Assembly (NCBI GenBank): GCA_964634265.1
Contig: CAZWIM010000003.1
Location: forward strand, 138,541 to 202,540
Reading direction: 5' to 3'
Length of the DNA: 64,000 nt
Source of the DNA: an uncultured Chitinophaga sp.
Lineage (GTDB): Bacteria; Bacteroidota; Bacteroidia; Chitinophagales; Chitinophagaceae
Shown here: in pieces, positions 11,602 through 44,555 of the stretch
Numbering within the stretch: the stretch's first letter is position 1
How the letters are laid out: every line of letters starts with the position of its first letter
Notes under the pieces: generated by a model
Told to the model about the DNA's origin: nothing
Database searches by the model: none
The model's input: the letters and a program-made list of their open reading frames with translations, nothing else
Position numbers and translations under genes: made by a program

Positions 11602-11667
11602 TGAAAGTATTCCACTGTTAAAATACTTTATTTGAGCAACCTCAAAAAGTAAACTGATTTTTATCAG
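11602..11667 (-). promoter_or_regulatory. Tandem FNR-like boxes plus -7 element (ccoI promoter)
   Basis: TTGAG-CAAC-CTCAA 11632-11645 and CTGAT-TTTT-ATCAG 11654-11667; TACTTTCA 11609->11602. Confidence 0.8.
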
Positions 11668-13076
11668 TTCCTTTCTTCAGCAACATGGCGGGGAGCCTGG
11701 ATCGTAACCAGCTCTTCTTCAACGGTAGGCTTCTTTTGGGTGCTGCTGGCCAGTATTTTATAAACAGAAAAGATCAAAAGAAAGAGACCGGCGAAAATAG
11801 CGATGCCACTATAGGCAAATAGCTTGAACCATGGCTGGCTTTTTTGCATGATAGAAGCAAATACTTCATTGTTGAGTTTACCGCTGAGCTTCAGCAGCCC
11901 GCTGCCCAACAGAGAAATCCAGAAAAGAAGTAGCGAAATATTTGTAATGAGAATACCCCAGTTTATATGCAGTTTTTTCTTTTCAATTGCGGCTCTGTTT
12001 TCGTTTTGGATAATATAAAATAAAGATGCAAATAACAGCATTGTATTAATACCAATAGTGGCGCCCATGGCATGAGCTACTGTTATGTGAGTACCGTGAG
12101 TATAATAATTCCAGGACGGAACAGATATCGCAATAGCCAATGTAAGATTCAGAAATATCCAGATATCGGCATAGGAAAGCAGCCGATAGGGTATGTTATG
12201 ATAATTTTTCCGTGCCTGTGTCATGGTCTTTCTCCACTGCATTATTATGTATCCCAGTATAAGTAACTCCGTCATACTTATCACATAGGCTACTGTTTTT
12301 ACCCAGGGTGCAGCTGGTACTATATAAGTGTGATGGCCCCAGTTGAACATCAGGTTGGTCAACCCGAGAAAATAAAAAAAGAAAGCGATAGGCGAACGAT
12401 TGGCTTTGGTGTCACCGCTCAACTTTTCCATAACATACATACCGGTGCCGTACACCAGCATGTTCCAGCTACCTACCATGGAGCCAAGTGCTTTCCACTG
12501 CACTGTCACATCCCTGACGATATTGGTATGAAAATAATCCAGCAGCCACAAATAGGATTCAGACAAGGTAATAAAGAAGAAAAGTATACCTGTTGACCAA
12601 CTCCAGATATAAACAGGTGCGTTCTTATAATCAGGCTTAAGGGTAAAAAAGAAGTTGATAGCAAAAGGTACCCATGACAGCATGATTACTGCGCCGAGTA
12701 ACGGGGGAAACTCCAGGTATTCTCTTCCCCCAAAATAGCCAAGAAAAAAACAAACTAAAATGAGCAAAGAAACTGCTGAGTGGAGAAAAAAGTGTATCCA
12801 GGCACCTTGTTGCCAGTGAAGAGGTCTGCCTGTTACTCTTGGTAAATAGTAATATAAACCGGCTTGTGCTGCCGTAAATATCCAGCTGATAACAAGATAT
12901 ACATGCAACGGTCTTGTTTTCTGAAAGGCCAGCTGATCTTTTAAAAATGGTGGAAGGATATATTGCAGCCCGCCGATAACTCCCAGCAACAAACCAATCA
13001 GGAGGTAACTTACAGAAAGCAGTAAAAATGCCTTTGCTGTTTTGTCAGAAGTGTATATAGCAGTGTCCTTAAACAT
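11664..13076 (-). CDS. Non-canonical heme-copper superfamily subunit I (NorB/CcoN-related)
   Basis: About 12 TM; RPLH58, GREYLEFP, NWGH248H249, E270 and AH335AM337 present; helix-VI His absent (QWKALGSMVGSWN). Confidence 0.85.
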   Translation of the reverse strand: MFKDTAIYTSDKTAKAFLLLSVSYLLIGLLLGVIGGLQYILPPFLKDQLAFQKTRPLHVYLVISWIFTAAQAGLYYYLPRVTGRPLHWQQGAWIHFFLHSAVSLLILVCFFLGYFGGREYLEFPPLLGAVIMLSWVPFAINFFFTLKPDYKNAPVYIWSWSTGILFFFITLSESYLWLLDYFHTNIVRDVTVQWKALGSMVGSWNMLVYGTGMYVMEKLSGDTKANRSPIAFFFYFLGLTNLMFNWGHHTYIVPAAPWVKTVAYVISMTELLILGYIIMQWRKTMTQARKNYHNIPYRLLSYADIWIFLNLTLAIAISVPSWNYYTHGTHITVAHAMGATIGINTMLLFASLFYIIQNENRAAIEKKKLHINWGILITNISLLLFWISLLGSGLLKLSGKLNNEVFASIMQKSQPWFKLFAYSGIAIFAGLFLLIFSVYKILASSTQKKPTVEEELVTIQAPRHVAEERN

Positions 13077-13082
13077 AACAGG

Positions 13083-13460
13083 TCAGGGCTTGGATTTATA
13101 GGTTACAGCAGTTGAGTCTACATATTTTAAGTAACTGATAATATCAGCGATTTCATCAGCTTTAAAATGAAAATTGGGCATTCTGGGTCCACCTGCCTGT
13201 AAGAAGGCTTTCATATAAACTTCACCCCGTTGCGGATCGCTGTAGGCAGTTGTCAGTTCAGGACCCAGGTAGCCGCCTAAACCGTATATCTGGTGGCAGG
13301 CAACGCAATTGTATTGTTCATACAGGTATTTACCACGGGATACTTTTTCTGCTTGTTGTCCTGTTAATTGTATCTCACTTTCCGTTCCTTTTGAATAAAT
13401 GACTGTACTGTAAACCGCATAGCTGGTGAATAAAGTGAGAAAGACTGCTATTTTGATCAT
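13083..13460 (-). CDS. Membrane-anchored monoheme cytochrome c (NorC-like)
   Basis: N-terminal TM, CVACHQIYGLGGYLGPELT, PRMP axial Met. Confidence 0.88.
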   Translation of the reverse strand: MIKIAVFLTLFTSYAVYSTVIYSKGTESEIQLTGQQAEKVSRGKYLYEQYNCVACHQIYGLGGYLGPELTTAYSDPQRGEVYMKAFLQAGGPRMPNFHFKADEIADIISYLKYVDSTAVTYKSKP

Positions 13461-13480
13461 CAGTACTTTGTTTAAAAGGG

Positions 13481-13546
13481 CGAAAGTATTTTCAGGCTTT
13501 GCAGGCAGCGGTGATTTTTCTCAGCCACCGGCCTGATAGTTCTCAT
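13481..13546 (-). promoter_or_regulatory. Tandem FNR-like boxes plus -7 element (norCB-like promoter)
   Basis: GTGAT-TTTT-CTCAG 13511-13524 and CTGAT-AGTT-CTCAT 13533-13546; TACTTTCG 13488->13481. Confidence 0.78.
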
Positions 13547-13569
13547 TTATTCTACTTTTTTAATGGACT

Positions 13570-13593
13570 AAAAAGCATAATCGTATGTTATGC
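13570..13593 (-). terminator. Probable terminator after nosY
   Basis: Minus strand GCATAA-CATACGA-TTATGC-TTTTT (short, AT-rich stem). Confidence 0.45.
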
Positions 13594-13622
13594 CAGAAAG
13601 ACTTTTAGCTCTGCTCTCTTTG

Positions 13623-14390
13623 TTAGAGATCTTTTCTATTGAATCTGCGTATAGCTAGCCAAAGGGGTAATACTGTCCACAGTAGCATGATACCTATTGT
13701 AAACAGCAGACCAGTGCTGCTGGTAAAGAAATCTTTGTATAAGGCGCTTGTGACTCCCATTAATGCACTGATGTCCATCTTTAATGTAACAAAGATTCTT
13801 CCAACATCAATCGGGTTCAGCGATATGAGGGGCAATGTGATTTTTTCCAGCGGGTAATCGCTAAAATTAAAGATTATGAGTAAAATAAGGCCATCAAAAA
13901 TAAGGGTGAAGTAAAACCAAAGCAGGAGAGCGGCACCGATACCCCTGGCTTTGTCTCTTGACCTGACTGATGCAAAAAAGGCAATAGCCACAAAAACAAC
14001 AGTTAAAGCCATCCCGGTCAAAAGCAGTGCAAAGCCGGTTTCATCCGGTGCATAAATGAGGATGGGCAAACCTACGCCGATCAGGAAGGCGCTGAGTAAT
14101 GATATACTTACACCGGCAAACTCACTTATTATGATGCGGGTACGGCTCATTGGCTGCGATGACATCAGTTCTATAAACTCATAAGAATTATAATAGTGAA
14201 TAGTGGTGAATACAAGACTAACCAGCGGCAAAACAATCAATACAATATTTAGCAAACTCAGCATGGCCTTACTGCTGTTTTCTTCCATATTGAACATACT
14301 CAGTGAAACAACCAGTAAAAACAGGGTATAGGCTAATACGATCTTGCTTCTTAGTATATCGTACAGCACATATTTTGATACCTTCATCAT
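13623..14390 (-). CDS. nosY: Nos ABC transporter permease
   Basis: Six-TM ABC-2 permease with LNPID motif, downstream of nosD-nosF. Confidence 0.88.
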   Translation of the reverse strand: MMKVSKYVLYDILRSKIVLAYTLFLLVVSLSMFNMEENSSKAMLSLLNIVLIVLPLVSLVFTTIHYYNSYEFIELMSSQPMSRTRIIISEFAGVSISLLSAFLIGVGLPILIYAPDETGFALLLTGMALTVVFVAIAFFASVRSRDKARGIGAALLLWFYFTLIFDGLILLIIFNFSDYPLEKITLPLISLNPIDVGRIFVTLKMDISALMGVTSALYKDFFTSSTGLLFTIGIMLLWTVLPLWLAIRRFNRKDL

Positions 14391-14401
14391 AGCTGCGGGG
14401 T

Positions 14402-15169
14402 TTAATAGATTTTCTCGTCTTTTTTAACTTCCAGTATCTTGTCTATCCACTCATTTGTGAGCTTTTCACCTTTCATAATCCTGGCAATAGCTTTACCCAG
14501 CCTCAGTTCGCCTGTTTCTTCCTGTAATGTCTGCATATCTTTAAAGAATTGCATTTTACCTTCCTGCAGGTACATCACATGTGTGGTCAGTTCATCAAGA
14601 TCGCTTAGTATATGAGAAGTGATGAGGATCAGCTTATTTTTTTTCTTTTCAGCAATGATCTTATCTTTTAATAGTTCAGAAGAAAGCGGATCAAGACCGG
14701 CGGTGGGTTCGTCAAGAATTAATATGGCAGGATCGAACAGGAATGCCAATGCAGCGCTAACTTTTTGACGGGTGCCTCCGCTCAATGTCCGCATAGGTTT
14801 ATCATATATCTTTTCCAGTTCAAATTGCCTGATCAATGTTTCATCCTGCTTATCAGTCGCTACTCCCCGAATGTTTTCAATCATACGGAAAAGTTGACCG
14901 ATCCTCATATTGTCAGGATACCGTCCAATCTGCGGCATATAACCGATATTGGCCCGATAGGAGTGATCCCCGCTGATCACATGCCCGTCAACTGTGATCT
15001 TGCCTTTATCGGGGCGTACCATCCCCAAAATGGATTTGATAAGGGTCGTTTTTCCGGATCCGTTTGGCCCGATAAGTGAAATTACCTGCCCTTTTTCCAT
15101 GTTGGCGTTGATATCGTCCAATACCTGGAGTTTGCGGAACCGCTTGCTGATATGTTCAATACTGATCAT
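14402..15169 (-). CDS. nosF: Nos ABC transporter ATPase
   Basis: GPNGSGKT, LSGG, ILDEP. Confidence 0.9.
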   Translation of the reverse strand: MISIEHISKRFRKLQVLDDINANMEKGQVISLIGPNGSGKTTLIKSILGMVRPDKGKITVDGHVISGDHSYRANIGYMPQIGRYPDNMRIGQLFRMIENIRGVATDKQDETLIRQFELEKIYDKPMRTLSGGTRQKVSAALAFLFDPAILILDEPTAGLDPLSSELLKDKIIAEKKKNKLILITSHILSDLDELTTHVMYLQEGKMQFFKDMQTLQEETGELRLGKAIARIMKGEKLTNEWIDKILEVKKDEKIY

Positions 15170-16398
15170 AGCTTCAGTGATTTCATCATTGGTTTTTTGT
15201 CTACAAGGTTTTCAGGGGTAAGACTTGGTATGGCTTTTTCAGCTTTGTCAAGCAGTTGAACGGTAAAACTTCTCAACAGCATCAGGGCATTGGGGTTTTG
15301 TTCTATGATCATAGAATACATGCTCACCGGATGATAAGGAATGTCGCCCACTCCATCCCTGTTGATATCGTACCCTTCATATTTATCCCAATAGTTACTG
15401 CTAAATTCATTCAGTGACACCGACCCGTTAGTGCCAACATCAAAACTGTTGCCTGAAAAATTATTACGCTGAAAAATGTTATTCTCACAACTCGCCTGAA
15501 CTTTAATGGCCCATCCGTTTTCCCTAAAAGTATTCCGTTCAATCGTCATGCGGCTGGTGCCTTCCATGTGTATGCCCACTGTGTTTTTGTAGAAAGTGTT
15601 ATGAGATATATAGCTGTCAGAAATATCTTTTAAAAGTATGCCATATGCAGATGACCCCCAGTTTTGATCAAAGTGATTGTTTTCCATCTTAACCTTTTTG
15701 GAATACATCACAGCCACACCAGCTCCATTATTTATGAAAGTATTATTCAGGTAAGCGTCATCATTGGAGAACATAAAATGTAAACCATAGCGAATATTTT
15801 TCTCACTATGATTATTTCTGATGATTGAATGGGTCACAAATTCAAAATAAATACCATCCCGGTGACCCTGGATATTGTTGTTTTCAATTACTGCATAGCT
15901 CGATTTCCACAAATGAATACCATTTCCGGTCAATTGTTCAGACCTGGGAGAGCCTGTTATTATATTGTTTTTAATGGTAGCATAGCTGGTATTAGATACA
16001 TGAATAGCAAAGTAGGCATTGGTTACTTTATTCCCGTCAATGGTGACTTTTGAAGCGTCCACCAGTTTTATGGATGCATAGTCATTTAATGCAGAATATC
16101 CGGAGTTTCTGAATGCAAGGCCTTTTATGCTGATATTCTGGCCACTTATCAGCATAATCTCATACTTATTCTCTCCCTCCAGTATGGGATAGTTTTGGCC
16201 TATGATCGTTATTGATTTTGTTAGTTGTAAAGCACCTTCTTTATAGAGCCCCGGCATCACAGTGATGCTGTCATAATCTTTGGCTATTTCGATGGCTTTC
16301 CGGATAGATGTTACTGACTGATTCTTACCCACGATAATATTCCGGCCAAATCCGGTTGCCGGTAACAGAATTAATAATATCAGGACGAAGCGGTGCAT
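15166..16398 (-). CDS. nosD: N2O reductase maturation protein
   Basis: Beta-helix repeats, GNGIHLW, HRDGIYFE, RYGLHFMFS, NYWDKYEGYD.N.DG.GD. Confidence 0.95.
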   Translation of the reverse strand: MHRFVLILLILLPATGFGRNIIVGKNQSVTSIRKAIEIAKDYDSITVMPGLYKEGALQLTKSITIIGQNYPILEGENKYEIMLISGQNISIKGLAFRNSGYSALNDYASIKLVDASKVTIDGNKVTNAYFAIHVSNTSYATIKNNIITGSPRSEQLTGNGIHLWKSSYAVIENNNIQGHRDGIYFEFVTHSIIRNNHSEKNIRYGLHFMFSNDDAYLNNTFINNGAGVAVMYSKKVKMENNHFDQNWGSSAYGILLKDISDSYISHNTFYKNTVGIHMEGTSRMTIERNTFRENGWAIKVQASCENNIFQRNNFSGNSFDVGTNGSVSLNEFSSNYWDKYEGYDINRDGVGDIPYHPVSMYSMIIEQNPNALMLLRSFTVQLLDKAEKAIPSLTPENLVDKKPMMKSLKL

Positions 16399-17429
16399 TA
16401 TTGCTGGCTTTTGAACAACTCCTCCCAGGTATGTAATGTACCTTCTTTTGTACTATTGGCTTTTTCAGCCGCTTCTTTTGATGAAAATGCGGCGGCATTA
16501 CTTCCCATCGGGCTTCTTAATTGCGGGTTTACCAAAAAGGTAGCTTTTTCCACATCAATGAAATCATTTTCTTTTTCAAAATTGATGACAACTCTTTGTG
16601 AAATTTCTTTTTCTTCCAACATACCGGATTTCAGAAAATTGATCATACATACGAGGTCATCAAATTTGTATACTTTACTTTTCTTGGTTATCACTTCACA
16701 TCCATATTTGGGATCCATGATACCCATTTTACAAAAGTGACAATTATCCTGTCCGTACTTAAATGGTTCTGGTTTTGCAGAACAGGAGCTAAGAAAGAGC
16801 CCCAGCAAAATAACAGGTGCCGCAAATGTGGTGGTTTTAAGTTTTTTTGAAGCTTTACGGTGCTTATACCACTCCGCAAACCAAACTGCAAAGGCGAGAC
16901 AGCCTGCTCCAATCACTATCCAGCCACCTACGTCTGGAAATGAATAAGAATCAAAATTCAGTAAACGTTTGTGGCCAATCAGCGGCGGCTGATAAGACAT
17001 GTCCGGCACCTGGATAGGTGCTTTTGGATCAAGGTTATGTCCGTATTTATAGCCCCATTGGTAAAAGTCCCACATAGCCAGTATGCCACCCAGGATAGTC
17101 AGACCTATATAGGCAAGCAGGAACTTGCGATTACCAGTAATGGCGACTATCATACCCAACAGCATGAAAAAGCCGACTACATAAGGCAGGTATTTAAATT
17201 CAGGGAACATGTCAACCGTAATGTGCTCCATACCGATATAATGGTTCAGGCCATTAATAATATCTACATCACCGGTAAGGCCATTTATCCAAATGTTCAT
17301 TGTCAGACCTTCCGGATATTGGGGAGCAAAAAGGTCTATACGCCAGGCGGGAAGAAAGAAAACGGCAATCAATGCACCAGATGCAAATGCTACTAGAATC
17401 CTCGATGCGACACTCAGTTTGTTGTTCAT
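16398..17429 (-). CDS. nosL: Clade II Nos membrane protein (NosB-like) fused to NosL copper chaperone
   Basis: N-terminal WRIDLFAPQYPEGL...LNHYIGM membrane domain; C-terminal CHFCKMGI, FDDLVC, SPMG; likely start MNNKLS. Confidence 0.85.
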   Translation of the reverse strand: MNNKLSVASRILVAFASGALIAVFFLPAWRIDLFAPQYPEGLTMNIWINGLTGDVDIINGLNHYIGMEHITVDMFPEFKYLPYVVGFFMLLGMIVAITGNRKFLLAYIGLTILGGILAMWDFYQWGYKYGHNLDPKAPIQVPDMSYQPPLIGHKRLLNFDSYSFPDVGGWIVIGAGCLAFAVWFAEWYKHRKASKKLKTTTFAAPVILLGLFLSSCSAKPEPFKYGQDNCHFCKMGIMDPKYGCEVITKKSKVYKFDDLVCMINFLKSGMLEEKEISQRVVINFEKENDFIDVEKATFLVNPQLRSPMGSNAAAFSSKEAAEKANSTKEGTLHTWEELFKSQQ

Positions 17430-17501
17430 AACCCTGTTTTTAATGACTTCCGGGGCATTGCACCCCGGAAGCTTCAATTTTTAAACCTTCAACAAGAAAA
17501 G

Positions 17502-18062
17502 CTATTTTTTAGCCGGTGGTAGCAATACCTCATCAATTACATATACAAGTCCGTTACTTGCGGGAATGGCAGCTACAATATTTGCTTTGCCATTTATTTT
17601 TATTTTACCATCTGCAGATTTACTGATAGTAATATTATCTCCGTTGGCCTGGCCTATTTGCTGACCGTCCTGCAGCATATTTTCTTTAAATACGCCTAGT
17701 GCAACATGGTATTCAAGAATGTTCTGCAAATCTGCTTTTTTATCATCTTTCATTAATCCATCAACAGTTCCTGCAGGGAGTTTATCAAAAGCAGCATTGG
17801 TTGGTGCAAACACGGTAAAAGGCCCGGCGTTTGAAATATCATCTACATATTCAGCCTGTTTAAGGGCAGCCACCAATGTGGTATGATCGGGTGAGCCAAC
17901 AGCTACTTTTACTATATCCTTTTGTGATACATCGTCCTTCACATTTTCCTGTCCCCCCGCTGTTACTGTTTCATCAGTAGCAGCAGTTTCTTTTTTTTCA
18001 TTATTGCAGGCATTTGTAAATATGATAAGTGCGACTGGCAGCAGTAAGATTAGTTTTTTCAT
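17502..18062 (-). CDS. Fasciclin (FAS1) domain lipoprotein
   Basis: Lipobox FTNAC; GPFTVFAPTNAAF, ILEYHV, ASNGLVYVIDEVLLP. Confidence 0.92.
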   Translation of the reverse strand: MKKLILLLPVALIIFTNACNNEKKETAATDETVTAGGQENVKDDVSQKDIVKVAVGSPDHTTLVAALKQAEYVDDISNAGPFTVFAPTNAAFDKLPAGTVDGLMKDDKKADLQNILEYHVALGVFKENMLQDGQQIGQANGDNITISKSADGKIKINGKANIVAAIPASNGLVYVIDEVLLPPAKK

Positions 18063-18091
18063 ATACTTATATTTTAAGTATGAAAGTTGAT

Positions 18092-18119
18092 AAGAGCAAC
18101 CGCATATGCGGTTGCTCTT
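18092..18119. repeat. Perfect 28-bp palindrome between nosZ and the fasciclin gene
   Basis: AAGAGCAACCGCAT|ATGCGGTTGCTCTT. Confidence 0.9.
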
Positions 18120-18126
18120 TACTTAA

Positions 18127-20130
18127 TTATTTCTTTTGAGTGGTGTCTTTGGGGGTAACTGGGGCTGTTTTACCAGTACTGAATGTAAGCGGCACATTCG
18201 ACCCGGCAGGGCTTACTCTTACATACCCTTGCATTTCCTGGTGCAGTGCAGAGCAGAAGTCTGTGCAATACATGGGGTATATACCCACTTTTTCTGGTTT
18301 CCATGCCAATGTTTGAGTTTCACCAGGCATGATCAACAGTTCGGCGTTATTAGCACCTTTAACTGCAAAGCCATGCGGCACATCCCAGTCCTGTTCCAGG
18401 TTAGTAACATGGAAGTAAACAATGTCGCCCAGTTTTACACCTTCGATATTGTCAGGAGTGAAGTGAGAGCGGATAGAGGTCATGTACACATGTATTTCAT
18501 TACCTTTTCTTTCCACTCTTGCATTGTTATCACCCAATGCAGCATAAGGGTTTTTGTTTTCTTCGATTTTATAGATCTTGGTTGAATTCTTCATGATCAG
18601 TTCAGCAGGAATGGCTTCAGCATAGTGCGGCTCACCAATTGTGGGGAAGTCAAGCAATAGCTTCATTTTTTCACCGCTGATGTCATATAACTGGGCACTT
18701 TGTGTCAGTTCAGGACCTGTAGGCAGGTAACGGTCTTTTGTGATTTTGTTGTAAGCAATTACATATTTGCCATGTGGTTTTTTAGTAGGACCACCGGGCA
18801 CACAGAGGTGACCAATTGAGTAATACGTAGGTACACGGTCAACCACTTTCAGGTCTTTAATATTCCATTTTACTATCTCAGATGATACGAAGAAAGAGGT
18901 ATAGGCATTACCTTTTGCATCAAATTCTGTATGCAAAGGGCCTAATCCTGGTTTTTGTACCTCACCATGTAAAACAGCTTCATATTTTAAAACAGGTATA
19001 CCATCAAAGTTGCCATCAAAATTCTTCTGGGCTATTGCTTCCTGGATTTTGGTGAAAGAAAATACCGGTATTACGGCTGCCAGTTTACCACTGCCTACAA
19101 TATACTCACCGGTAGGATCGGTATCACAACCGTGGGGTGATTTGGGGCAAGGCATATAATACACCATATCGGGGCAATCTTTTGGATCAAGTACCAGTAC
19201 TTCATTTTCCATAGTTGAAGTGGCAGAATGAGTGCTTTCATTATACACATTATGTGCATACTTCACGGCTTTCTTAACTCCTTTGCCTGCTTTTGCATAC
19301 TCTTCTGCTTTTTTCCAGTTCACTGCCATAATAAAATCTTTGTCTTTCTGGGAAGCATTCACTTCCAGCAGTGTATTGGCTTTTTCAGAATTGTAACAGC
19401 TAAAGAACATCCAGCCAGCAGATTTGCCTTTGCCGGCACGGGCAAGGTCATAATTTACACCCGGGGTAAGTATCTGGAAAGCGATATTCATGTTGCCGGA
19501 AGTTTTATCAATGCCGATAAAACTTACAGTTCCTTTAAAGTTCTCTTTGTATGTTTCAATGGGTACATCTTGTTTATCACCAATAGGAATACTGAAACGG
19601 GTACCAGCCACAACGTACTCGGAATTCTCAGTTATGAACGGAGAAGAGTGGTTGCCGGCACTGTTGGGAATTTCAATAATTTCTGCTGTTCTGAATGTTT
19701 TAAGGTCAATGCGGGCAATACGAGGAGTGTTATTAGCATTACCAAATGCCCAGCGACCGTCATGCTCTCCGTTCGTAACAGACAGTGCTATGTGGTGCAG
19801 ATCATCCCAGGGTACAAAACCATGTGATGTGTTCAACATAGGTTTGGATTCTTCACTGTAGCCCCAGCCTTTTTCAGGATCAACGGAAAAAACGGGTATA
19901 ACACGGAACAAACGTCCTGATGGTAAACCATACACAGACATTTGCCCGCTGAAACCACCGGAAACAAAGTTGTAGAATTCATCATATTTACCGGGGGCAA
20001 CGTAAACCTTGGAAGCAGCATTTCCGCTTACGGCTGATTGCGATCCTTTGGGTTTACAGCCCTGCATGAACACCAATCCAGTCGTTAATAACAGGAATGG
20101 TATTGTTGTTCTTAAAAATTTGTGTTTCAT
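18127..20130 (-). CDS. nosZ: Clade II (Sec-dependent) nitrous oxide reductase
   Basis: No twin-Arg signal; lipoprotein-like signal ...FMQGC; CuZ His motifs DLHH, GNH, PHG, GPLHT, GHL, EPH; CuA motif H...CTDFCSALHQEM. Confidence 0.97.
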   Translation of the reverse strand: MKHKFLRTTIPFLLLTTGLVFMQGCKPKGSQSAVSGNAASKVYVAPGKYDEFYNFVSGGFSGQMSVYGLPSGRLFRVIPVFSVDPEKGWGYSEESKPMLNTSHGFVPWDDLHHIALSVTNGEHDGRWAFGNANNTPRIARIDLKTFRTAEIIEIPNSAGNHSSPFITENSEYVVAGTRFSIPIGDKQDVPIETYKENFKGTVSFIGIDKTSGNMNIAFQILTPGVNYDLARAGKGKSAGWMFFSCYNSEKANTLLEVNASQKDKDFIMAVNWKKAEEYAKAGKGVKKAVKYAHNVYNESTHSATSTMENEVLVLDPKDCPDMVYYMPCPKSPHGCDTDPTGEYIVGSGKLAAVIPVFSFTKIQEAIAQKNFDGNFDGIPVLKYEAVLHGEVQKPGLGPLHTEFDAKGNAYTSFFVSSEIVKWNIKDLKVVDRVPTYYSIGHLCVPGGPTKKPHGKYVIAYNKITKDRYLPTGPELTQSAQLYDISGEKMKLLLDFPTIGEPHYAEAIPAELIMKNSTKIYKIEENKNPYAALGDNNARVERKGNEIHVYMTSIRSHFTPDNIEGVKLGDIVYFHVTNLEQDWDVPHGFAVKGANNAELLIMPGETQTLAWKPEKVGIYPMYCTDFCSALHQEMQGYVRVSPAGSNVPLTFSTGKTAPVTPKDTTQKK

Positions 20131-20194
20131 AATATGTATTTAGCAGTTTTGAAAAGAGGTTCCTTTGCTTCCGTTGGTTCTTGTTTTGGTTCTT

Positions 20195-20665
20195 TTATTT
20201 TTCACCGTCATTGCTGCGCATGAACTCCAGTACTTTCCTTGCGTCCTCTTTAGCGATGTTTTGATTCGGCATTCTCACCATACACTGTTCCAGTAATTTT
20301 TGTGCTTCGGCATCACTTTCAAGCATCATGTCAACATTGGTGATCATATTCATGATCCAAAGAGGCTTTCTTCTTTTGGTAACATCTTTCCATCCGGGAC
20401 CCACCAGTTTTTCTTCAGTAAGGCGATGGCAAGACTGACATTTCAACTCATAAGTGCTTTTTCCGGCGCTGACCATTGCCTGGTCTAAAGGGGTATTTAA
20501 AGTGATATCCCCTTCTTTTAATTCTGTGCCATGAACTTCAGGTTGGTTCTTGGTCAGGTCTTGTACATCAACAGGTTTTTCATCTTTTTTTACACCTTCA
20601 TTGCAGGCAAATAAAAAAGCGCCGCCGGCGATTAATACAAGGGCCGAAAGTTTGAGTGATTTCAT
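20195..20665 (-). CDS. Monoheme cytochrome c lipoprotein (NosC-like, first gene of nos operon)
   Basis: Lipobox LFAC; CQSCH; VRMP. Confidence 0.9.
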   Translation of the reverse strand: MKSLKLSALVLIAGGAFLFACNEGVKKDEKPVDVQDLTKNQPEVHGTELKEGDITLNTPLDQAMVSAGKSTYELKCQSCHRLTEEKLVGPGWKDVTKRRKPLWIMNMITNVDMMLESDAEAQKLLEQCMVRMPNQNIAKEDARKVLEFMRSNDGEK

Positions 20666-20726
20666 GTTTAATTTTTTAGTGATTAGATGATATAATTCTT
20701 TAAACTAAAGTTACATGGTTTTTAAA

Positions 20727-20744
20727 AAAGACATCGATGTCTTT
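20727..20744. promoter_or_regulatory. Candidate Rrf2 operator 1
   Basis: Perfect palindrome AAAGAC-ATCGAT-GTCTTT immediately downstream of the predicted nos -7 element. Confidence 0.65.
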
Positions 20745-20752
20745 AATGGGGT

Positions 20753-20818
20753 CAAAAGTATCAGGGAGTAAAACTGTATAATATGACAACCATCAAATAA
20801 TCAGCTGATATTTATCAC
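20753..20818 (-). promoter_or_regulatory. Tandem FNR-like boxes plus -7 element (nos promoter, possibly bidirectional)
   Basis: ATGAC-AACC-ATCAA 20783-20796 and CTGAT-ATTT-ATCAC 20805-20818; TACTTTTG 20760->20753; degenerate TTTTTTTG 20841-20848 at the mirror position on the + strand. Confidence 0.8.
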
Positions 20819-20825
20819 CTTGAAA

Positions 20826-20843
20826 TAGGACAGCTTGGTCTTT
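20826..20843. promoter_or_regulatory. Candidate Rrf2 operator 2 (autoregulatory)
   Basis: TAGGAC-AGCTTG-GTCTTT, same GAC-N6-GTC core as operator 1, overlapping the rrf2 promoter. Confidence 0.55.
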
Positions 20844-20852
20844 TTTTGCAAA

Positions 20853-21293
20853 ATGGTATGTTCTAAGTCTTTTGGATATGCTCTAAGGGGGATACTTTAT
20901 GTTGCATTGATGAATGATCAGAAGCCCCGGGTACAGGTAGAAGAAATAGCTGAAAAGCTATCTGTACCCAAGCATTACCTGGGTAAGATTATGAAGCAGG
21001 TGGTGAAAGAAGGTATCCTATCATCTACAAAAGGTCCTTATGGCGGTTTTTCTTTAAATGAAACTACGCTTTCAAGTCCTTTGATTAATATCCTTAAGAT
21101 CACAGATGGGTTTGAACAATTCAATACCTGTGTGCTAAGATTAAGAAAATGCAATTCCAGCCGTCCTTGTCCGCTTCATGACCAGATTGAAGCTAACAGG
21201 AAGCAATGGTTACAAATATTTTCTAAAACCAGTATAGGAGACCTTTTGAACAAAGATGAAGTCAGCTTCCTGGAAGGGCTGGCAACTATTTAA
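20853..21293 (+). CDS. Rrf2-family transcriptional regulator (Fe-S type, possibly NO-responsive)
   Basis: SKSFGYALR, STKGPYGGF wing, CVLRLRKCNSSRPCPLH; ATG 20853 preferred over TTG 20835. Confidence 0.9.
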   Translation: MVCSKSFGYALRGILYVALMNDQKPRVQVEEIAEKLSVPKHYLGKIMKQVVKEGILSSTKGPYGGFSLNETTLSSPLINILKITDGFEQFNTCVLRLRKCNSSRPCPLHDQIEANRKQWLQIFSKTSIGDLLNKDEVSFLEGLATI

Positions 21294-21408: not shown

Positions 21409-22164
21409 ATGTTTTTGAAGCCATTACGAATAGAACCAACTTCATTTGTAACAGATATTGTAACGGCTGATTACCGGACTGCAGAAGTATTTCGTAAATA
21501 CGATATCGAATACTGCTGTGGCGGAAGATGGCCGTTAGAAATGGTTTGCCATGCAAAAGGACTTAATATAAACGACCTCACCAGGGAATTGGAGCAGTCA
21601 ATTCGCTCTGTACAGGTGCCCAATTCATTGCCTTTTAATGAATGGCATATTGATTTTTTAGCTGATTATATTGTAAATGTTCATCATCATTATTTGCGTA
21701 CACAGCTTCCTGAAATAAAGGAACTGATCCGGAAGTTTTCAGAGGAGCATTTAAAAAAATATCCTTTTTTGCAGGAGGTTGAAAAAATATTCCTCCAATT
21801 ATATAAGGAAATGATTCCTCACCTGAAGCAAGAAGAAGAGATCATTTTCCCTTATATACGACAGATAGCTCATGCCTATGAAAGCAGTGAGTCTTATGCC
21901 AGTTTGCTGGTAAGAACACTTCGCAAACCTGTGGAAGAAGTAATGAACCACGAACATGCTTCCGTGGTGAGATCAGTACATCGTATCAGGGAACTTACAA
22001 ATGATTACACTCCTCCGCCAAATGCCTGTGTTAGTCATAAGGTCACATTCTCTAAATTGAAAGAACTGGATAACGACCTGATGCAGCATATGCACCTGGA
22101 GAATAACATCCTCTTTCCCCGGGCTATTGAAATGGAAAAAATCTTGTTAGCCACAAAGGATTAG
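21409..22164 (+). CDS. ric: Iron-sulfur cluster repair di-iron protein (Ric/YtfE/ScdA)
   Basis: DYRTAEVFRKYDIEYCCGG, HHHYLR, HLKQEE, EH, HMHLENNILFP. Confidence 0.95.
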   Translation: MFLKPLRIEPTSFVTDIVTADYRTAEVFRKYDIEYCCGGRWPLEMVCHAKGLNINDLTRELEQSIRSVQVPNSLPFNEWHIDFLADYIVNVHHHYLRTQLPEIKELIRKFSEEHLKKYPFLQEVEKIFLQLYKEMIPHLKQEEEIIFPYIRQIAHAYESSESYASLLVRTLRKPVEEVMNHEHASVVRSVHRIRELTNDYTPPPNACVSHKVTFSKLKELDNDLMQHMHLENNILFPRAIEMEKILLATKD

Positions 22165-22229: not shown

Positions 22230-23477
22230 ATGCATCTTGACGCAGCACATATGACATCTCTGTTCGAGAATGCTACAGAGGGAATTATTTTGGTAAATCA
22301 ACAAGGGGAGATTGTATTGGCCAATCCTTCTGCTGGCCGGATGTTTGGCTATGAACCGGACGAACTGATCGGACAACAAATTGAAATACTTATTCCTGAG
22401 AGGTTCAGTACTCATCACCATCATCACAGAGATGGGTTTTATCAAAAACCATCAAACAGGGTTATGGGGCAGGGCCGGGATCTGTATGGTAAAAGAAAAG
22501 ATGGCACTGACCTGCCCGTGGAAGTTAGTCTGAGCCATTATAAAAAGGAGGATCAGCTTTTTGTGATTGCCTTCATTGTTGATATTACAAAGCGGAAAGA
22601 AATAGAAAGCAGCATGCTTCAGCAAAAGCGGGAGCTGGAAAAGATCACCGATAAAATACGGCAGCTTAATGCCAGCCTGGAAGTAAAGGTAGAAGAACGG
22701 ACACTTATATTGAAAGAAGCATTGCAGAAGCTTGAGCAGTCACAATTGGAACTGAGTGAAGCACTGGATAAAGAAAGACAACTGAATGAGATCAAAAGCC
22801 GCTTTGTTTCAATGGCGTCTCATGAGTTCAGGACACCGCTGAGTACTGTTCTTTCTTCGGCATCATTGCTGTCTAAATACAAAACAGGAGAAGAACAGGA
22901 GAAAAGGGATAAACATATTCAGCGGATCAAGAATTCAGTCAATCACTTAAATGACATACTGGAGGACTTCCTTTCTTTGGGCAAACTGAATGAAGGAAAA
23001 GTTGATAAAGTAGCCGACCAGGTTTCCCTTAAGGAAGTAATACTTGATACAATGGATGAGATGAGGGGCATTTTGAAAAAAGATCAATACTTTGATTTCC
23101 AGTGTGATTCTGATTGTAATGCCTGTACGGATAAAAAGCTATTCAAAAATATCCTTATCAACCTGATCAGCAATGCCAGTAAGTTTTCCGACGAAGGAAA
23201 GAAAATCCTTATCAAGAGCAAGGTAGAAGATGATAATGTTATTGTCTCCGTTATTGATGAGGGAATTGGTATATCCGAAGAGGATCAGCTGCATCTTTTT
23301 TCCAGCTTCTTCCGTGGGGCCAATGCTACCAATATCCAGGGCACCGGCCTAGGATTGCACATTGTGAAGAGTTATATTGATCTGCTGGGAGGGGATGTAA
23401 GATTAAAGAGTACGTTAAATACAGGAACAACAATTACCTTTACGGTTCCTGTAAATTTACTTGAAAAGGAAGAATAG
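22230..23477 (+). CDS. PAS-domain sensor histidine kinase (FixL/DosP-like PAS)
   Basis: PAS with HHHHHR..F...P..RVMGQGRDLYGKRKDG; SHEFRTPL H-box; NLISNASKFS; DEGIG; GTGLGL. Confidence 0.92.
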   Translation: MHLDAAHMTSLFENATEGIILVNQQGEIVLANPSAGRMFGYEPDELIGQQIEILIPERFSTHHHHHRDGFYQKPSNRVMGQGRDLYGKRKDGTDLPVEVSLSHYKKEDQLFVIAFIVDITKRKEIESSMLQQKRELEKITDKIRQLNASLEVKVEERTLILKEALQKLEQSQLELSEALDKERQLNEIKSRFVSMASHEFRTPLSTVLSSASLLSKYKTGEEQEKRDKHIQRIKNSVNHLNDILEDFLSLGKLNEGKVDKVADQVSLKEVILDTMDEMRGILKKDQYFDFQCDSDCNACTDKKLFKNILINLISNASKFSDEGKKILIKSKVEDDNVIVSVIDEGIGISEEDQLHLFSSFFRGANATNIQGTGLGLHIVKSYIDLLGGDVRLKSTLNTGTTITFTVPVNLLEKEE

Positions 23478-23512
23478 ATAACCTGTTGCTATAACCAACA
23501 AAAAACCAACAC

Positions 23513-24568
23513 ATGAAATCAATACTGGTAATAGATGACAACCCCGATATCAGGGAGAATACCGCAGAAATCCTGGAGCTGGCAGGATATAAAACCCTGA
23601 CAGCTGAAAATGGTAAGAAGGGTGTTGAGTTAGCCCAAAAAGAAAAACCAGATGTTATTGTTTGTGATATAATGATGCCTGAACTTGACGGGTATGGTGT
23701 GTTGCACCTGCTCAGAAAGAACCCGGAAACAGAGCAAATCCCATTTTTATTTCTTACTGCTAAAACAGAGAGAAGTGATTTTCGCAAAGGGATGGAAATG
23801 GGAGCTGATGATTATATTACCAAGCCATTCGAAGACATCGAATTACTGAATGCCATAGAAACCCGTCTTCGCAAAGCGGCGATCATGGATAATAAGTATG
23901 CCGCATCTCATCAAGGTATCAACCAGTTCATTAAGGATGTAAAAAATTCAGGACTGATGAGCCAGCTGGCTGATCAGTACGATGTAGAAGTTTATACAAA
24001 GAAGCAGACACTTTACCAGGAGGGAAAACGGCCAAGGTTCCTCTATTACCTGGTCAAGGGCAAGGTGAAAGGATTTAAGACACATGAAGATGGTAAGGAA
24101 TATATAACGGATCTGTTCAGCGATGGCGACTTTATTGGCTATCCTGCTTTAATTGAGGATAAAAACTATGATGATTCTGCTGTTATCCTTGAAGATGCAG
24201 AGATCATGCAGATACCCAGGGAAGATTTTCTGCAAATGATCTACGGCAATATAGATATCGCAGCTAAGTTTATCCGGATTATTACACAGAATGTTAAAGA
24301 AAAAGAAGACAGGCTGCTGAACCTTGCTTACAGCTCGTTAAGAAAAAGAGTAGCAAAAGCGTTGGTGGATATACATGGTAAATTCAACGCAGAAAACCCT
24401 AGTAAGCCCCTTGAGATTTCAAGAGAAGATTTTGCGCATTATGTAGGAACGGCTACGGAATCCCTTATCCGTACACTTAGCGATTTCAAGTCCGAGAAAC
24501 TCATCGAAATAAAAGATGGAAAAATATCTATCATCAATTTAGATAAGCTCAAAAACTTATTATTTTAA
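23513..24568 (+). CDS. Response regulator with REC plus Crp/Fnr (cNMP + HTH) domains
   Basis: ILVIDD, CDIMMP, KPF receiver; Crp fold; HTH GTATESLIRTLSDF. Confidence 0.92.
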   Translation: MKSILVIDDNPDIRENTAEILELAGYKTLTAENGKKGVELAQKEKPDVIVCDIMMPELDGYGVLHLLRKNPETEQIPFLFLTAKTERSDFRKGMEMGADDYITKPFEDIELLNAIETRLRKAAIMDNKYAASHQGINQFIKDVKNSGLMSQLADQYDVEVYTKKQTLYQEGKRPRFLYYLVKGKVKGFKTHEDGKEYITDLFSDGDFIGYPALIEDKNYDDSAVILEDAEIMQIPREDFLQMIYGNIDIAAKFIRIITQNVKEKEDRLLNLAYSSLRKRVAKALVDIHGKFNAENPSKPLEISREDFAHYVGTATESLIRTLSDFKSEKLIEIKDGKISIINLDKLKNLLF

Positions 24569-44147: not shown

Positions 44148-44555
44148 ATGCTTTCTAAAAAATCACAATATGCCTTTAAGGCATTAACGTATCTGACAGA
44201 GCGTTATAAGAAAGGACCTGTTTTAATTGCTGAGATTTCAAAAAAGAAAAAGATCCCATTAAAGTTTTTAGAGAATATTCTGCTTGAGCTAAAAAAAGCA
44301 GACATACTTGACAGCAAGAAGGGAAAGGGTGGCGGTTATTTTCTTAAAAAAGATCCTTCTAAAGTTAAGATGGCAACTGTTATCCGGCTGGTGAACGGGC
44401 CTATTGCTATGCTGCCCTGCGTCAGCCTATATTTTTACGAACGATGCAAAAACTGCGATGAAAAGAATTGCGGCCTCCATGATATGATGGTGGAAGTAAG
44501 AGATGCAACACTTGGCATCCTGGAAAACAGGACACTGCAGGACCTGGTTGTATAA
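44148..44555 (+). CDS. Rrf2-family regulator (IscR/CymR-like)
   Basis: LSKKSQYA, SKKGKGGGY, CVSLYFYERCKNC...CGL. Confidence 0.92.
   Translation: MLSKKSQYAFKALTYLTERYKKGPVLIAEISKKKKIPLKFLENILLELKKADILDSKKGKGGGYFLKKDPSKVKMATVIRLVNGPIAMLPCVSLYFYERCKNCDEKNCGLHDMMVEVRDATLGILENRTLQDLVV

What the first reader, a model, noticed from the sequence alone, without database searches (positions are those of the whole stretch)
20727..20848. Dual-input switch: Rrf2-type operators flank the tandem boxes in the nos/rrf2 divergent region
Seen: palindrome AAAGAC-N6-GTCTTT (20727-20744) begins 9 nt after the nos -7 element, at a classic repressor position. A second copy, TAGGAC-N6-GTCTTT (20826-20843), overlaps the rrf2 promoter. 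The tandem boxes lie symmetrically between the two, with -7-like elements 23 nt away on both strands. Known: Rrf2 proteins with three Cys (NsrR, IscR) sense NO or Fe-S status and often autoregulate, and ric is a typical NO-stress gene. Inference: nos expression needs both low O2 and derepression by the Rrf2 protein. The GAC-N6-GTC motif is not one I recognise.
Basis: partly seen in the sequence, partly recalled or inferred. Interest (0 to 1): 0.7.

Follow-up and report, generated by a model that had tools for sequence, protein, structure and literature searches.

The report
Rrf2 repressor site on nosZ promoter

Summary
Site 1 (20727-20744, extended 20725-20746) is real and functional-looking. 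It matches the consensus TAAAAGACATCGATGTCTTTTA and sits at a fixed distance after the nos -7 element. It is present in 18 of 18 same-genus genomes that keep the divergent rrf2 gene. It is absent in the two that lost rrf2 independently but kept the promoter, the Crp/Fnr boxes, ric, the PAS kinase and the REC-Crp regulator.

Genome-wide, only one other site scores as high. It lies before a YtkA-like lipoprotein / TonB (copper-type) receptor operon, and it is also lost in an rrf2-less genome. The same palindrome lies next to homologous Rrf2 genes (C-X6-C-X5-C-P-x-H) in many other Bacteroidia families, before ric, norC/norB-like, nos and ccoI genes. An RNA-hairpin reading fails.

Site 2 (20826-20843) is weak (score 11.0 against 28.7) and is absent from the 95% and 91% relatives, so its function is open.

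Verdict: site 1 is the operator of an uncharacterised, NsrR-like but distinct Rrf2 subfamily. Together with the Crp/Fnr boxes it forms an AND gate on clade II nos. The signal (NO, redox or Fe-S status) is inferred, not shown.

The parts
20725..20746 (.). Site 1: 22-bp operator AAAAAGACATCGATGTCTTTAA (perfect 18-bp palindrome at 20727-20744). Its centre is 17 nt downstream of the nos -7 element, so it covers about +1 to +22 of the nos transcript.
   Evidence: sequence; conservation; score 28.7, the genome maximum; fixed spacing
20753..20760 (-). nos promoter -7 element TACTTTTG (Bacteroidota TAnnTTTG type)
   Evidence: conserved in all orthologous loci
20784..20795 (.). Crp/Fnr-type box A, TGACAACCATCA, 23 nt from the nos -7 element (class II-like, centre about -42 for nos)
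   Evidence: retained in the rrf2-less genomes
20806..20817 (.). Crp/Fnr-type box B, TGATATTTATCA, 22 bp from box A and 23 nt from the rrf2 -7-like element
20826..20843 (.). Site 2: TAGGACAGCTTGGTCTTT, a weak operator-like palindrome between box B and the rrf2 -7-like element. Function uncertain.
   Evidence: score 11.0; not conserved; half-site scores 4.2 and 6.8
20841..20848 (+). rrf2 -7-like element TTTTTTTG, 4 nt before the ATG (near-leaderless mRNA)
   Evidence: GGTCTTTTTTTGCAAAATG is conserved in the nearest subclade
20853..21293 (+). rrf2: 146-aa Rrf2-family regulator with invariant Cys93, Cys100, Cys106 and His109
21409..22164 (+). ric (ScdA_N + hemerythrin), downstream of rrf2
22230..24568 (+). 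PAS histidine kinase (22230-23477) and REC-Crp/Fnr fusion regulator (23513-24568). These are the candidate binders of the tandem boxes, not of the palindrome.
   Evidence: retained where the palindrome is lost
13623..20665 (-). Regulated operon: cytochrome c (20195-20665), clade II nosZ (18127-20130), fasciclin, nosL-fusion, nosD, nosF, nosY

Best explanation
Site 1 is the operator of the Fe-S-type Rrf2 regulator encoded divergently at 20853-21293. A dimer bound to TAAAAGAC-N6-GTCTTTTA covers about +1 to +22 of the cytochrome c-nosZ operon and blocks transcription from a promoter that a Crp/Fnr-type protein otherwise activates through two boxes at about -42 and -64. nos is therefore expressed only when the activator is on (probably low O2, through the PAS kinase / REC-Crp pair) and the Rrf2 repressor is released. 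Release probably follows a change to its Cys3-His-bound cluster caused by NO, which would make the protein a functional analogue of NsrR. The same regulator acts in trans on a second operon (YtkA-like lipoprotein plus a TonB receptor of the copper type). This would couple copper supply to N2O reductase synthesis.

Shown by comparison: the site, its conservation, its fixed position, its regulon, and its link to the Rrf2 gene.

Inferred: repression, the cluster, the signal, and the identity of the activator.
For: Conservation and position
- The site is present at the nos promoter in 18 of 18 same-genus genomes that have the Rrf2 ortholog.
- It is also present in about 68 of 77 Chitinophagaceae loci that had enough upstream sequence.
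- The distance from the -7 element to the palindrome centre is 16 nt in 46 of 65 distinct loci, with a range of 15-20.

Co-loss with rrf2
- G021 and G006 lack rrf2 and lack the site.
- Both keep cytochrome c-nosZ, the -7 element and both Crp boxes.
- Both also keep ric, the PAS kinase and REC-Crp at 50-80% identity.
- On a NosZ tree they fall in two different well-supported clades among rrf2-bearing genomes (96/90 and 98/96), which implies two independent losses.
- The two Rrf2 paralogs persist in these genomes.

Action in trans
- The only other strong site in the genome scores 26.7, at G000:C3:22673.
- It precedes a small membrane protein, a YtkA-like lipoprotein and a TonB receptor whose best NCBIfam match is TonB-copper.
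- That site is conserved in G003, G012, G020 and G024, and absent in the rrf2-less G021.
- In G043, rrf2 is unlinked from nos, yet the site remains at nos.

Same motif next to homologous Rrf2 genes elsewhere
- In a sister family (Rrf2 homologs 38-54% identical), rrf2-ccoI operons carry it just upstream of their -7 element in about 11 of 12 loci.
- Across the class Bacteroidia, 11 of 20 sampled loci carry 14 sites before ric, norC-like, norB/cbb3-like, nos or ccoI genes. About 0.4 would be expected from the G000 genome-wide rate.
- 26 of the 28 homologs examined keep C-X6-C-X5-C-P-x-H; for two loci the script found no ORF.

Protein
- It reaches the Rrf2 Pfam and TIGR00738 cut-offs.
- Cys93, Cys100, Cys106 and His109 are invariant.
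- The AF2 model (pLDDT 85) matches RsrR, NsrR, IscR and CymR structures.
Against: - There are no binding, expression or TSS data.
- At the second target the site is centred about -72, upstream of the Crp box. That is not a roadblock position, so the regulator may not be a simple repressor.
- ric and the NorCB-like pair, typical NO-regulon genes, have no site in this genome.
- The protein scores far below the NsrR, IscR and RirA equivalog cut-offs, so NO sensing cannot be transferred by orthology.
- An unidentified factor co-lost with rrf2 cannot be formally excluded.
Confidence: 0.68

Rival explanations
1. Same binder and same operator, but the Rrf2 protein does not sense NO. It would report O2 or redox state, Fe-S cluster supply, or copper. 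The gate would then be a second oxygen or metal check on a copper-enzyme regulon (nos, Cu receptor, ccoI).
For: - The ligand set Cys3 + His (C-X6-C-X5-C-P-x-H) resembles IscR more than NsrR (the IscR ligands are recalled from the literature).
- Targets in this genus and in the sister family are copper-related: nos, the YtkA/TonB-copper operon, and the ccoI Cu-ATPase.
- ric and the nor-like genes are not targets in this genome.
Against: - In other Bacteroidia families the same motif precedes ric and norC/norB-like genes, a typical NO-response set.
- rrf2 is co-transcribed with ric here.
- No sites lie near Fe-S assembly genes among the strong hits.
Confidence: 0.22
2. Site 2 (20826-20843) is a working second operator through which the Rrf2 protein represses its own rrf2-ric-kinase-regulator operon. 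This is what the reader proposed.
For: - Its score of 11.0 is reached by only 21 positions in 3.6 Mb.
- At that register, a left half as good as this arises by chance with P of about 0.002.
- It overlaps the rrf2 -7-like element, the position where sister families have clear auto-operators scoring 12-17.
Against: - It is absent from the 95%- and 91%-identical relatives (scores 3.9 and -3.5). The median best score in the same region of 78 other loci is -13.6.
- The better half (GTCTTTTT) is the conserved T-rich promoter element itself.
- rrf2 loci unlinked from nos have no palindrome at all upstream of rrf2.
Confidence: 0.33
3. Site 1 is bound by some other transcription factor (for example the REC-Crp/Fnr fusion, a paralogous Rrf2, or an unlinked regulator), and its position beside rrf2 is coincidental.
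For: No direct binding data exist. Two other regulators are encoded in the same operon.
Against: - REC-Crp, the PAS kinase and both Rrf2 paralogs are retained in the two genomes that lost the site.
- The motif follows homologous rrf2 genes into unrelated gene contexts in other families.
- The half-site is unlike the TGAY-N4-ATCA boxes.
Confidence: 0.07
4. The palindrome acts as a 5'-terminal RNA hairpin of the nos mRNA (stability or attenuation), not as a DNA site.
For: - The palindrome would be transcribed at the 5' end.
- Mean predicted energy is -4.5 kcal/mol, with a z-score of -2.4 against shuffles.
Against: - In the mRNA orientation, pair 8-15 is a C-A mismatch in 26 of 65 loci, and only 29 of 65 keep an intact 6-bp stem.
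- G6, A7, T16 and C17 are invariant, with no covariation.
- At other promoters the same sequence lies upstream of the -7 element, where it is not transcribed.
Confidence: 0.03

Closest known systems
NsrR (NO-sensing Rrf2 repressor of Proteobacteria, Bacillus, Streptomyces and Neisseria)
   Same: - Rrf2 fold with three C-terminal Cys.
- A palindromic operator on or near the promoter.
- Targets in related Bacteroidia include ric (the ytfE/dnrN equivalent), nor-like genes and nos.
- NsrR is reported as a direct regulator of nitrogen metabolism in Magnetospirillum (PMC11014258, title and abstract seen).
- FNR-activated plus NsrR-repressed promoters are a known logic.
   Different: - The protein scores 35.5 bits against the 182-bit cut-off of the NsrR equivalog model.
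- The operator is TAAAAGAY-N6-RTCTTTTA, not gATGyAT-N5-ATrCATc (PMC1274295).
- An invariant His follows the third Cys.
- No hmp or hcp targets were seen, and ric is not a target in this genus.
- NO response is untested.
IscR (Fe-S cluster regulator) and its type 1 site
   Same: - A Cys3 + His pattern, with C-x-x-H after the third Cys.
- A GAC...GTC core in the operator.
- IscR can repress or activate depending on site position.
   Different: - The protein scores 45.8 bits against a 207.55-bit cut-off.
- The spacing is GAC-N6-GTC, not N7 (the IscR consensus is recalled from the literature).
- No strong sites lie near Fe-S biogenesis genes.
- The regulon is respiratory and copper-related.
Rrf2 genes next to clade II nos clusters of Bacteroidetes (Calderoli et al. 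2018, PMC6264515)
   Same: [quoted passage not shown]
   Different: That work reports only gene neighbourhood. It gives no operator, regulon or evidence on mechanism.
FNR-activated, NsrR-repressed promoters of E. coli respiratory and NO-stress genes (general knowledge)
   Same: A class II activator box combined with an Rrf2 operator near the start site gives an AND gate of low O2 and NO.
   Different: Here there is a Bacteroidota -33/-7 promoter, a REC-Crp fusion as the likely activator, two tandem boxes shared by divergent promoters, and a different Rrf2 subfamily.

Membership tests
Rrf2 superfamily (PF02082 / TIGR00738) | Profile match above the curated cut-off | tested here: met
   Pfam Rrf2 76.8 bits (cut-off 30). 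TIGR00738 85.5 bits (cut-off 73.3).
Rrf2 superfamily (PF02082 / TIGR00738) | Winged-helix N-terminal domain plus a long dimerisation helix | tested here: met
   AF2 model with pLDDT 85.2 and pTM 0.81. Foldseek top hits are RsrR, CymR, NsrR-DNA (7b0c, TM 0.72) and IscR, all at 18-23% identity.
NsrR | Orthology (NCBIfam equivalog NF008240) | tested here: not met
   35.5 bits against a cut-off of 182
NsrR | Operator gATGyAT-N5-ATrCATc | tested here: not met
   The consensus here is TAAAAGACATCGATGTCTTTTA. The NsrR motif is taken from PMC1274295.
NsrR | Three conserved Cys that ligate an Fe-S cluster | tested here: met
   Cys93, Cys100 and Cys106 are invariant in 18 orthologs and are kept in 26 of 28 homologs examined across the class. 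The cluster itself is not testable here.
NsrR | NO-sensitive DNA binding | not testable with these tools
   Needs anaerobic protein biochemistry
NsrR | Regulon of NO-detoxification or denitrification genes | tested here: inconclusive
   In this genome the targets are nos and a copper-uptake-like operon only. In other Bacteroidia families they are ric, norC/norB-like, nos and ccoI.
IscR | Orthology (TIGR02010 / NF008110) | tested here: not met
   45.8 bits against 207.55, and 30.9 bits against 275
IscR | Cys3 + His ligand set | tested here: inconclusive
   C-X6-C-X5-C-P-x-H is invariant. IscR has C-X5-C-X5-C-x-x-H (recalled). The PDB alignment covers only residues 8-82.
IscR | Control of isc/suf Fe-S assembly genes through type 1 (GAC-N7-GTC) or type 2 sites | tested here: not met
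   Only two strong sites in the genome, at nos and at the TonB operon. The spacing is N6.
RirA | Orthology (NF008886) | tested here: not met
   44.6 bits against 193
Transcription-factor operator (generic) | Sequence-conserved dyad at a fixed promoter position across species, with a phyletic link to the factor | tested here: met

The most novel reading that the evidence does not exclude
The C-X6-C-X5-C-P-x-H Rrf2 proteins form a previously undescribed, Bacteroidia-wide subfamily whose operator is TAAAAGAY-N6-RTCTTTTA. They would be the missing local master switch of clade II N2O reduction and of associated functions: ric, nor-like genes, the ccoI Cu-ATPase, and TonB/YtkA copper supply. Their cluster would respond to NO. 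N2O consumption by these abundant soil and wastewater non-denitrifiers would then be licensed by NO released by their neighbours. A second, non-repressive mode would operate at -72 of the copper-uptake operon.
Probability: 0.4. Interest if true: 0.75.

Novelty: new variant of a known kind. Interest (0 to 1): 0.6.

Why it matters
Clade II nosZ organisms such as the Chitinophagaceae are major candidate sinks for the greenhouse gas N2O, yet what switches their nos genes on is essentially unknown. They lack NosR and the proteobacterial DNR/NnrR circuits.

A defined operator, a defined regulator, a minimal regulon (nos plus a copper-acquisition operon) and natural rrf2-less controls make the question directly testable. 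EMSA, reporter fusions and deletion in a culturable carrier would each address it. The 22-bp motif can also be used to predict nos regulation in metagenomes.

The link to a YtkA/TonB copper operon points to co-ordinated metal supply for the 12-Cu enzyme.

Tried and rejected
1. RNA hairpin in the nos leader: rejected. There are 26 C-A mismatches among 65 loci, no covariation, and the same motif lies untranscribed at other promoters.
2. REC-Crp/Fnr fusion, PAS kinase or paralogous Rrf2 as the binder: rejected, because all are retained where the site is lost.
3. Enrichment of the short core AGAC-N6-GTCT in the window: none (12 found, 13.6 expected). Only the 22-bp matrix discriminates.
4. Further regulon members in G000: candidates scoring 14-18.5 lie inside coding regions or within the shuffle range. 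Pattern counts in 11 genomes were no higher than a reversed-pattern control.
5. First pass over the orthologous loci was misread. Loci from the genome search are in contig orientation, so minus-strand matches looked as if rrf2 were not next to nos. This was corrected.
7. The sigma-70 promoter scan was not used, because the organism has Bacteroidota -33/-7 promoters.
8. Literature searches found no description of this operator. Only the gene-neighbourhood observation exists (PMC6264515).
9. The repeat finder with default arm length missed the palindrome. It was found with shorter arms.

Full report
**What is in the sequence**

The window comes from a Chitinophagaceae MAG. The 187-bp gap at 20666-20852 separates two divergent gene groups:
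- On the minus strand: a cytochrome c gene followed by clade II nosZ, a fasciclin gene, a nosL fusion, nosD, nosF and nosY.
- On the plus strand: rrf2 (ATG at 20853), ric (ScdA_N + hemerythrin), a PAS histidine kinase and a REC-Crp/Fnr fusion regulator.

- Site 1, AAAGACATCGATGTCTTT (20727-20744), is a perfect 9+9 palindrome. It begins 8 nt after the minus-strand -7 element TACTTTTG (20760..20753).
- Site 2, TAGGACAGCTTGGTCTTT (20826-20843), overlaps the -7-like TTTTTTTG (20841-20848). That element lies only 4 nt before the rrf2 ATG.
- The two boxes, TGACAACCATCA (20784-20795) and TGATATTTATCA (20806-20817), each lie 23 nt from a -7(-like) element on their own side.

**Is it more than chance?**

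The bare core AGAC-N6-GTCT (up to 1 mismatch) is not enriched in the window: 12 found against 13.6 expected. I built a matrix from orthologous sites, with the symmetric consensus TAAAAGACATCGATGTCTTTTA. With it:
- Site 1 scores 28.7.
- The only comparable position in the 3.6-Mb genome scores 26.7.
- Local shuffles reach at most 18.5.
- Site 2 scores 11.0 and is the 21st best position. There are 21 positions at 11 or above, and shuffles give 8-19.

**Conservation of site 1**

One caution applies to the data. Loci returned by the genome search are in contig orientation, which misled my first pass until I corrected it.

After correction, all 18 same-genus genomes with an Rrf2 ortholog (46-91% identity) have rrf2 divergent from cytochrome c-nosZ. 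All 18 carry the palindrome just after the nos -7 element. Among 80 further Chitinophagaceae loci from public genomes, about 68 of the 77 with enough upstream sequence have it. These include the cultured Cnuella takakiae RG1-1.

The spacing is tight. The distance from the end of the -7 element to the dyad centre is 16 nt in 46 of 65 distinct loci, with a range of 15-20. G6, A7, T16 and C17 are invariant, and the spacer varies freely.

**Not an RNA hairpin**

In the nos mRNA orientation, pair 8-15 is a C-A mismatch in 26 of 65 loci. Only 29 of 65 keep an intact 6-bp stem, and the invariant positions never covary. At other promoters the same sequence lies upstream of the -7 element, where it would not be transcribed.

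**Who binds it?**

Three independent lines point to the Rrf2 protein.

1. *Co-loss.*
   - Two same-genus genomes, G021 and G006, have no Rrf2 ortholog. In both, ric is directly divergent from cytochrome c-nosZ.
   - Both keep the -7 element and both Crp/Fnr boxes, but the palindrome position holds only eroded remnants.
   - Both also keep ric, the PAS kinase and REC-Crp at 50-80% identity, and both Rrf2 paralogs. This excludes those proteins as the binder.
   - On a NosZ tree the two genomes sit in different well-supported clades among rrf2-bearing genomes (96/90 and 98/96). That indicates two independent losses.
   - Site 1 lies on the far side of the retained boxes from rrf2, so a single deletion cannot explain its loss.

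2. *Action in trans.*
   - The second strong site, at G000:C3:22673 and outside the window, precedes three genes: a small membrane protein, a YtkA-like lipoprotein and a TonB-dependent receptor. The receptor's best NCBIfam match is the TonB copper receptor, below the cut-off.
   - YtkA/CtaK is a lipoprotein needed for CuA-centre assembly in B. subtilis (PMC9145763).
   - This site is conserved in G003, G012, G020 and G024, with different upstream neighbours.
   - It is absent in the rrf2-less G021, which keeps the operon and a Crp-like box.
   - In G043, rrf2 is unlinked from nos, yet the palindrome remains at the nos promoter. The rrf2 genes that are unlinked from nos have no palindrome upstream.

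3. *The motif travels with the protein family.*
   - In a sister family of the same order, Rrf2 homologs (38-54% identical) head rrf2-ccoI (Cu-ATPase) operons. About 11 of 12 of these loci carry TAAAAGAT-N6-RTCTTTTA immediately upstream of their own -7 element.
   - In an even sample of the class Bacteroidia, 11 of 20 loci with 31-42% homologs carry 14 sites. About 0.4 would be expected from the G000 genome-wide rate.
   - Those sites lie before ric, DUF2249-ric fusions, norC-like and norB/cbb3-like genes, cytochrome c-nosZ and ccoI.
   - 26 of the 28 homologs examined keep C-X6-C-X5-C-P-x-H; for two loci the script found no ORF.

**The protein**

It is a clear Rrf2-superfamily member. Its AF2 model (pLDDT 85) matches the RsrR, CymR, NsrR and IscR structures about equally, at 18-23% identity. 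It scores far below the curated equivalog cut-offs for IscR (45.8 / 207.55), RirA (44.6 / 193) and NsrR (35.5 / 182). Cys93, Cys100, Cys106 and His109 are invariant. From recalled literature, this ligand pattern is closer to IscR (Cys3His) than to Streptomyces NsrR (Cys3Asp). It is therefore a distinct subfamily.

**How it most likely works**

At nos, the proximal box is centred about 42 bp and the distal box about 64 bp upstream of the inferred start, the geometry of class II activation. The Rrf2 dyad covers roughly +1 to +22, a roadblock position. The promoter therefore reads as an AND gate:
- the activator must be on (inferred: low O2, through the PAS kinase and REC-Crp), and
- the Rrf2 protein must be off.

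The release signal is not shown. NO fits the regulon seen in other families (ric, nor, nos) and the rrf2-ric operon. Redox state, Fe-S status or copper remain possible, given the Cys3His pattern and the copper-centred targets here.

One observation does not fit simple repression. At the TonB operon the dyad is centred 30-31 bp upstream of a single Crp-like box, about -72 from an apparently leaderless start. That suggests anti-activation or co-activation.

**Site 2**

Site 2 occupies the kind of position used by auto-operators in sister families. Its left half would arise by chance at that register with P of about 0.002. Against this:
- The 95%- and 91%-identical relatives score 3.9 and -3.5 in the same region.
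- The median best score over 78 other loci is -13.6.
- Its better half is the conserved T-rich promoter element itself.

I put its being functional at about one in three.

**What is known**

Calderoli et al. 2018 (PMC6264515) noted that clade II nos scaffolds of Bacteroidetes are enriched in Rrf2 genes, but described no operator. Rodionov et al. 2005 (PMC1274295) give the NsrR motif gATGyAT-N5-ATrCATc, which differs from the motif here. Four literature searches found no description of this operator.

Earlier unchecked AI notes of this scan report AGAC-N6-GTCT-type Rrf2 operators near N-oxide genes in other genomes. They agree with my reading but are not independent evidence.

**Verdict**

- Site 1 is the operator of an uncharacterised NsrR-like Rrf2 subfamily that controls clade II nos.
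- The two-input architecture is supported.
- Site 2 and the nature of the signal remain open.

Noticed in passing
outside the window: G000:C3:22673-22694 (locus L061 4174-4197): Second strong operator in the genome (TAAAAGACCCTGATGTCTTTTA). It overlaps the stop codon of an ABC ATPase gene and lies 30 bp upstream of a Crp-like box. It heads an operon of a small membrane protein, a YtkA-like lipoprotein and a TonB receptor of the copper type. This is probably copper supply for NosZ. The -72 position is unexplained.
   Followed up: yes
window 20841-20855; L061 4244-4259: In both operons the -7-like element ends only 4-5 nt before the start codon (ATG of rrf2; GTG of the small membrane protein). 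The transcripts would be leaderless or nearly so.
   Followed up: partly
G021 (L033, L171) and G006 (L042, L172): Two same-genus genomes lost rrf2 independently. ric became directly divergent from cytochrome c-nosZ, and the operator decayed while the Crp boxes stayed. They are natural knock-outs that could be compared experimentally.
   Followed up: yes
L134 (CAZOOT010000048.1) and L093/L099: In L134 a deletion leaves only the half-site TAAAAGAC directly abutting the nos -7 element. In L093 and L099 one half is degenerate (GGCTCTTAT). rrf2 is still present in all three, so these may be partly derepressed nos promoters.
   Followed up: no
G022 (L016/L030, L040/L059): One genome carries two complete rrf2/cytochrome c-nosZ divergent loci, each with its own operator. 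The genome is flagged with 6% contamination, so the second copy may come from a second organism.
   Followed up: no
window 13461-13622 and 11664-13460: The NorCB-like pair next to nos has no Rrf2 operator in this genome (no position scoring 11 or above). In other Bacteroidia families, norC-like and norB/cbb3-like genes do carry the motif.
   Followed up: partly
L018/L174-L180, L204 (other Chitinophagales and Bacteroidia families): Homologous Rrf2 genes are co-transcribed with a CcoI/FixI-type Cu-ATPase and are autoregulated by the same palindrome. This is a second link between this regulator family and copper delivery to respiratory enzymes.
   Followed up: partly
window 44151-44549: A second Rrf2 paralog (27% identical) that is more IscR-like (TIGR02010 79.8 bits, still below the cut-off). 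It persists in genomes that lost the nos operator.
   Followed up: partly
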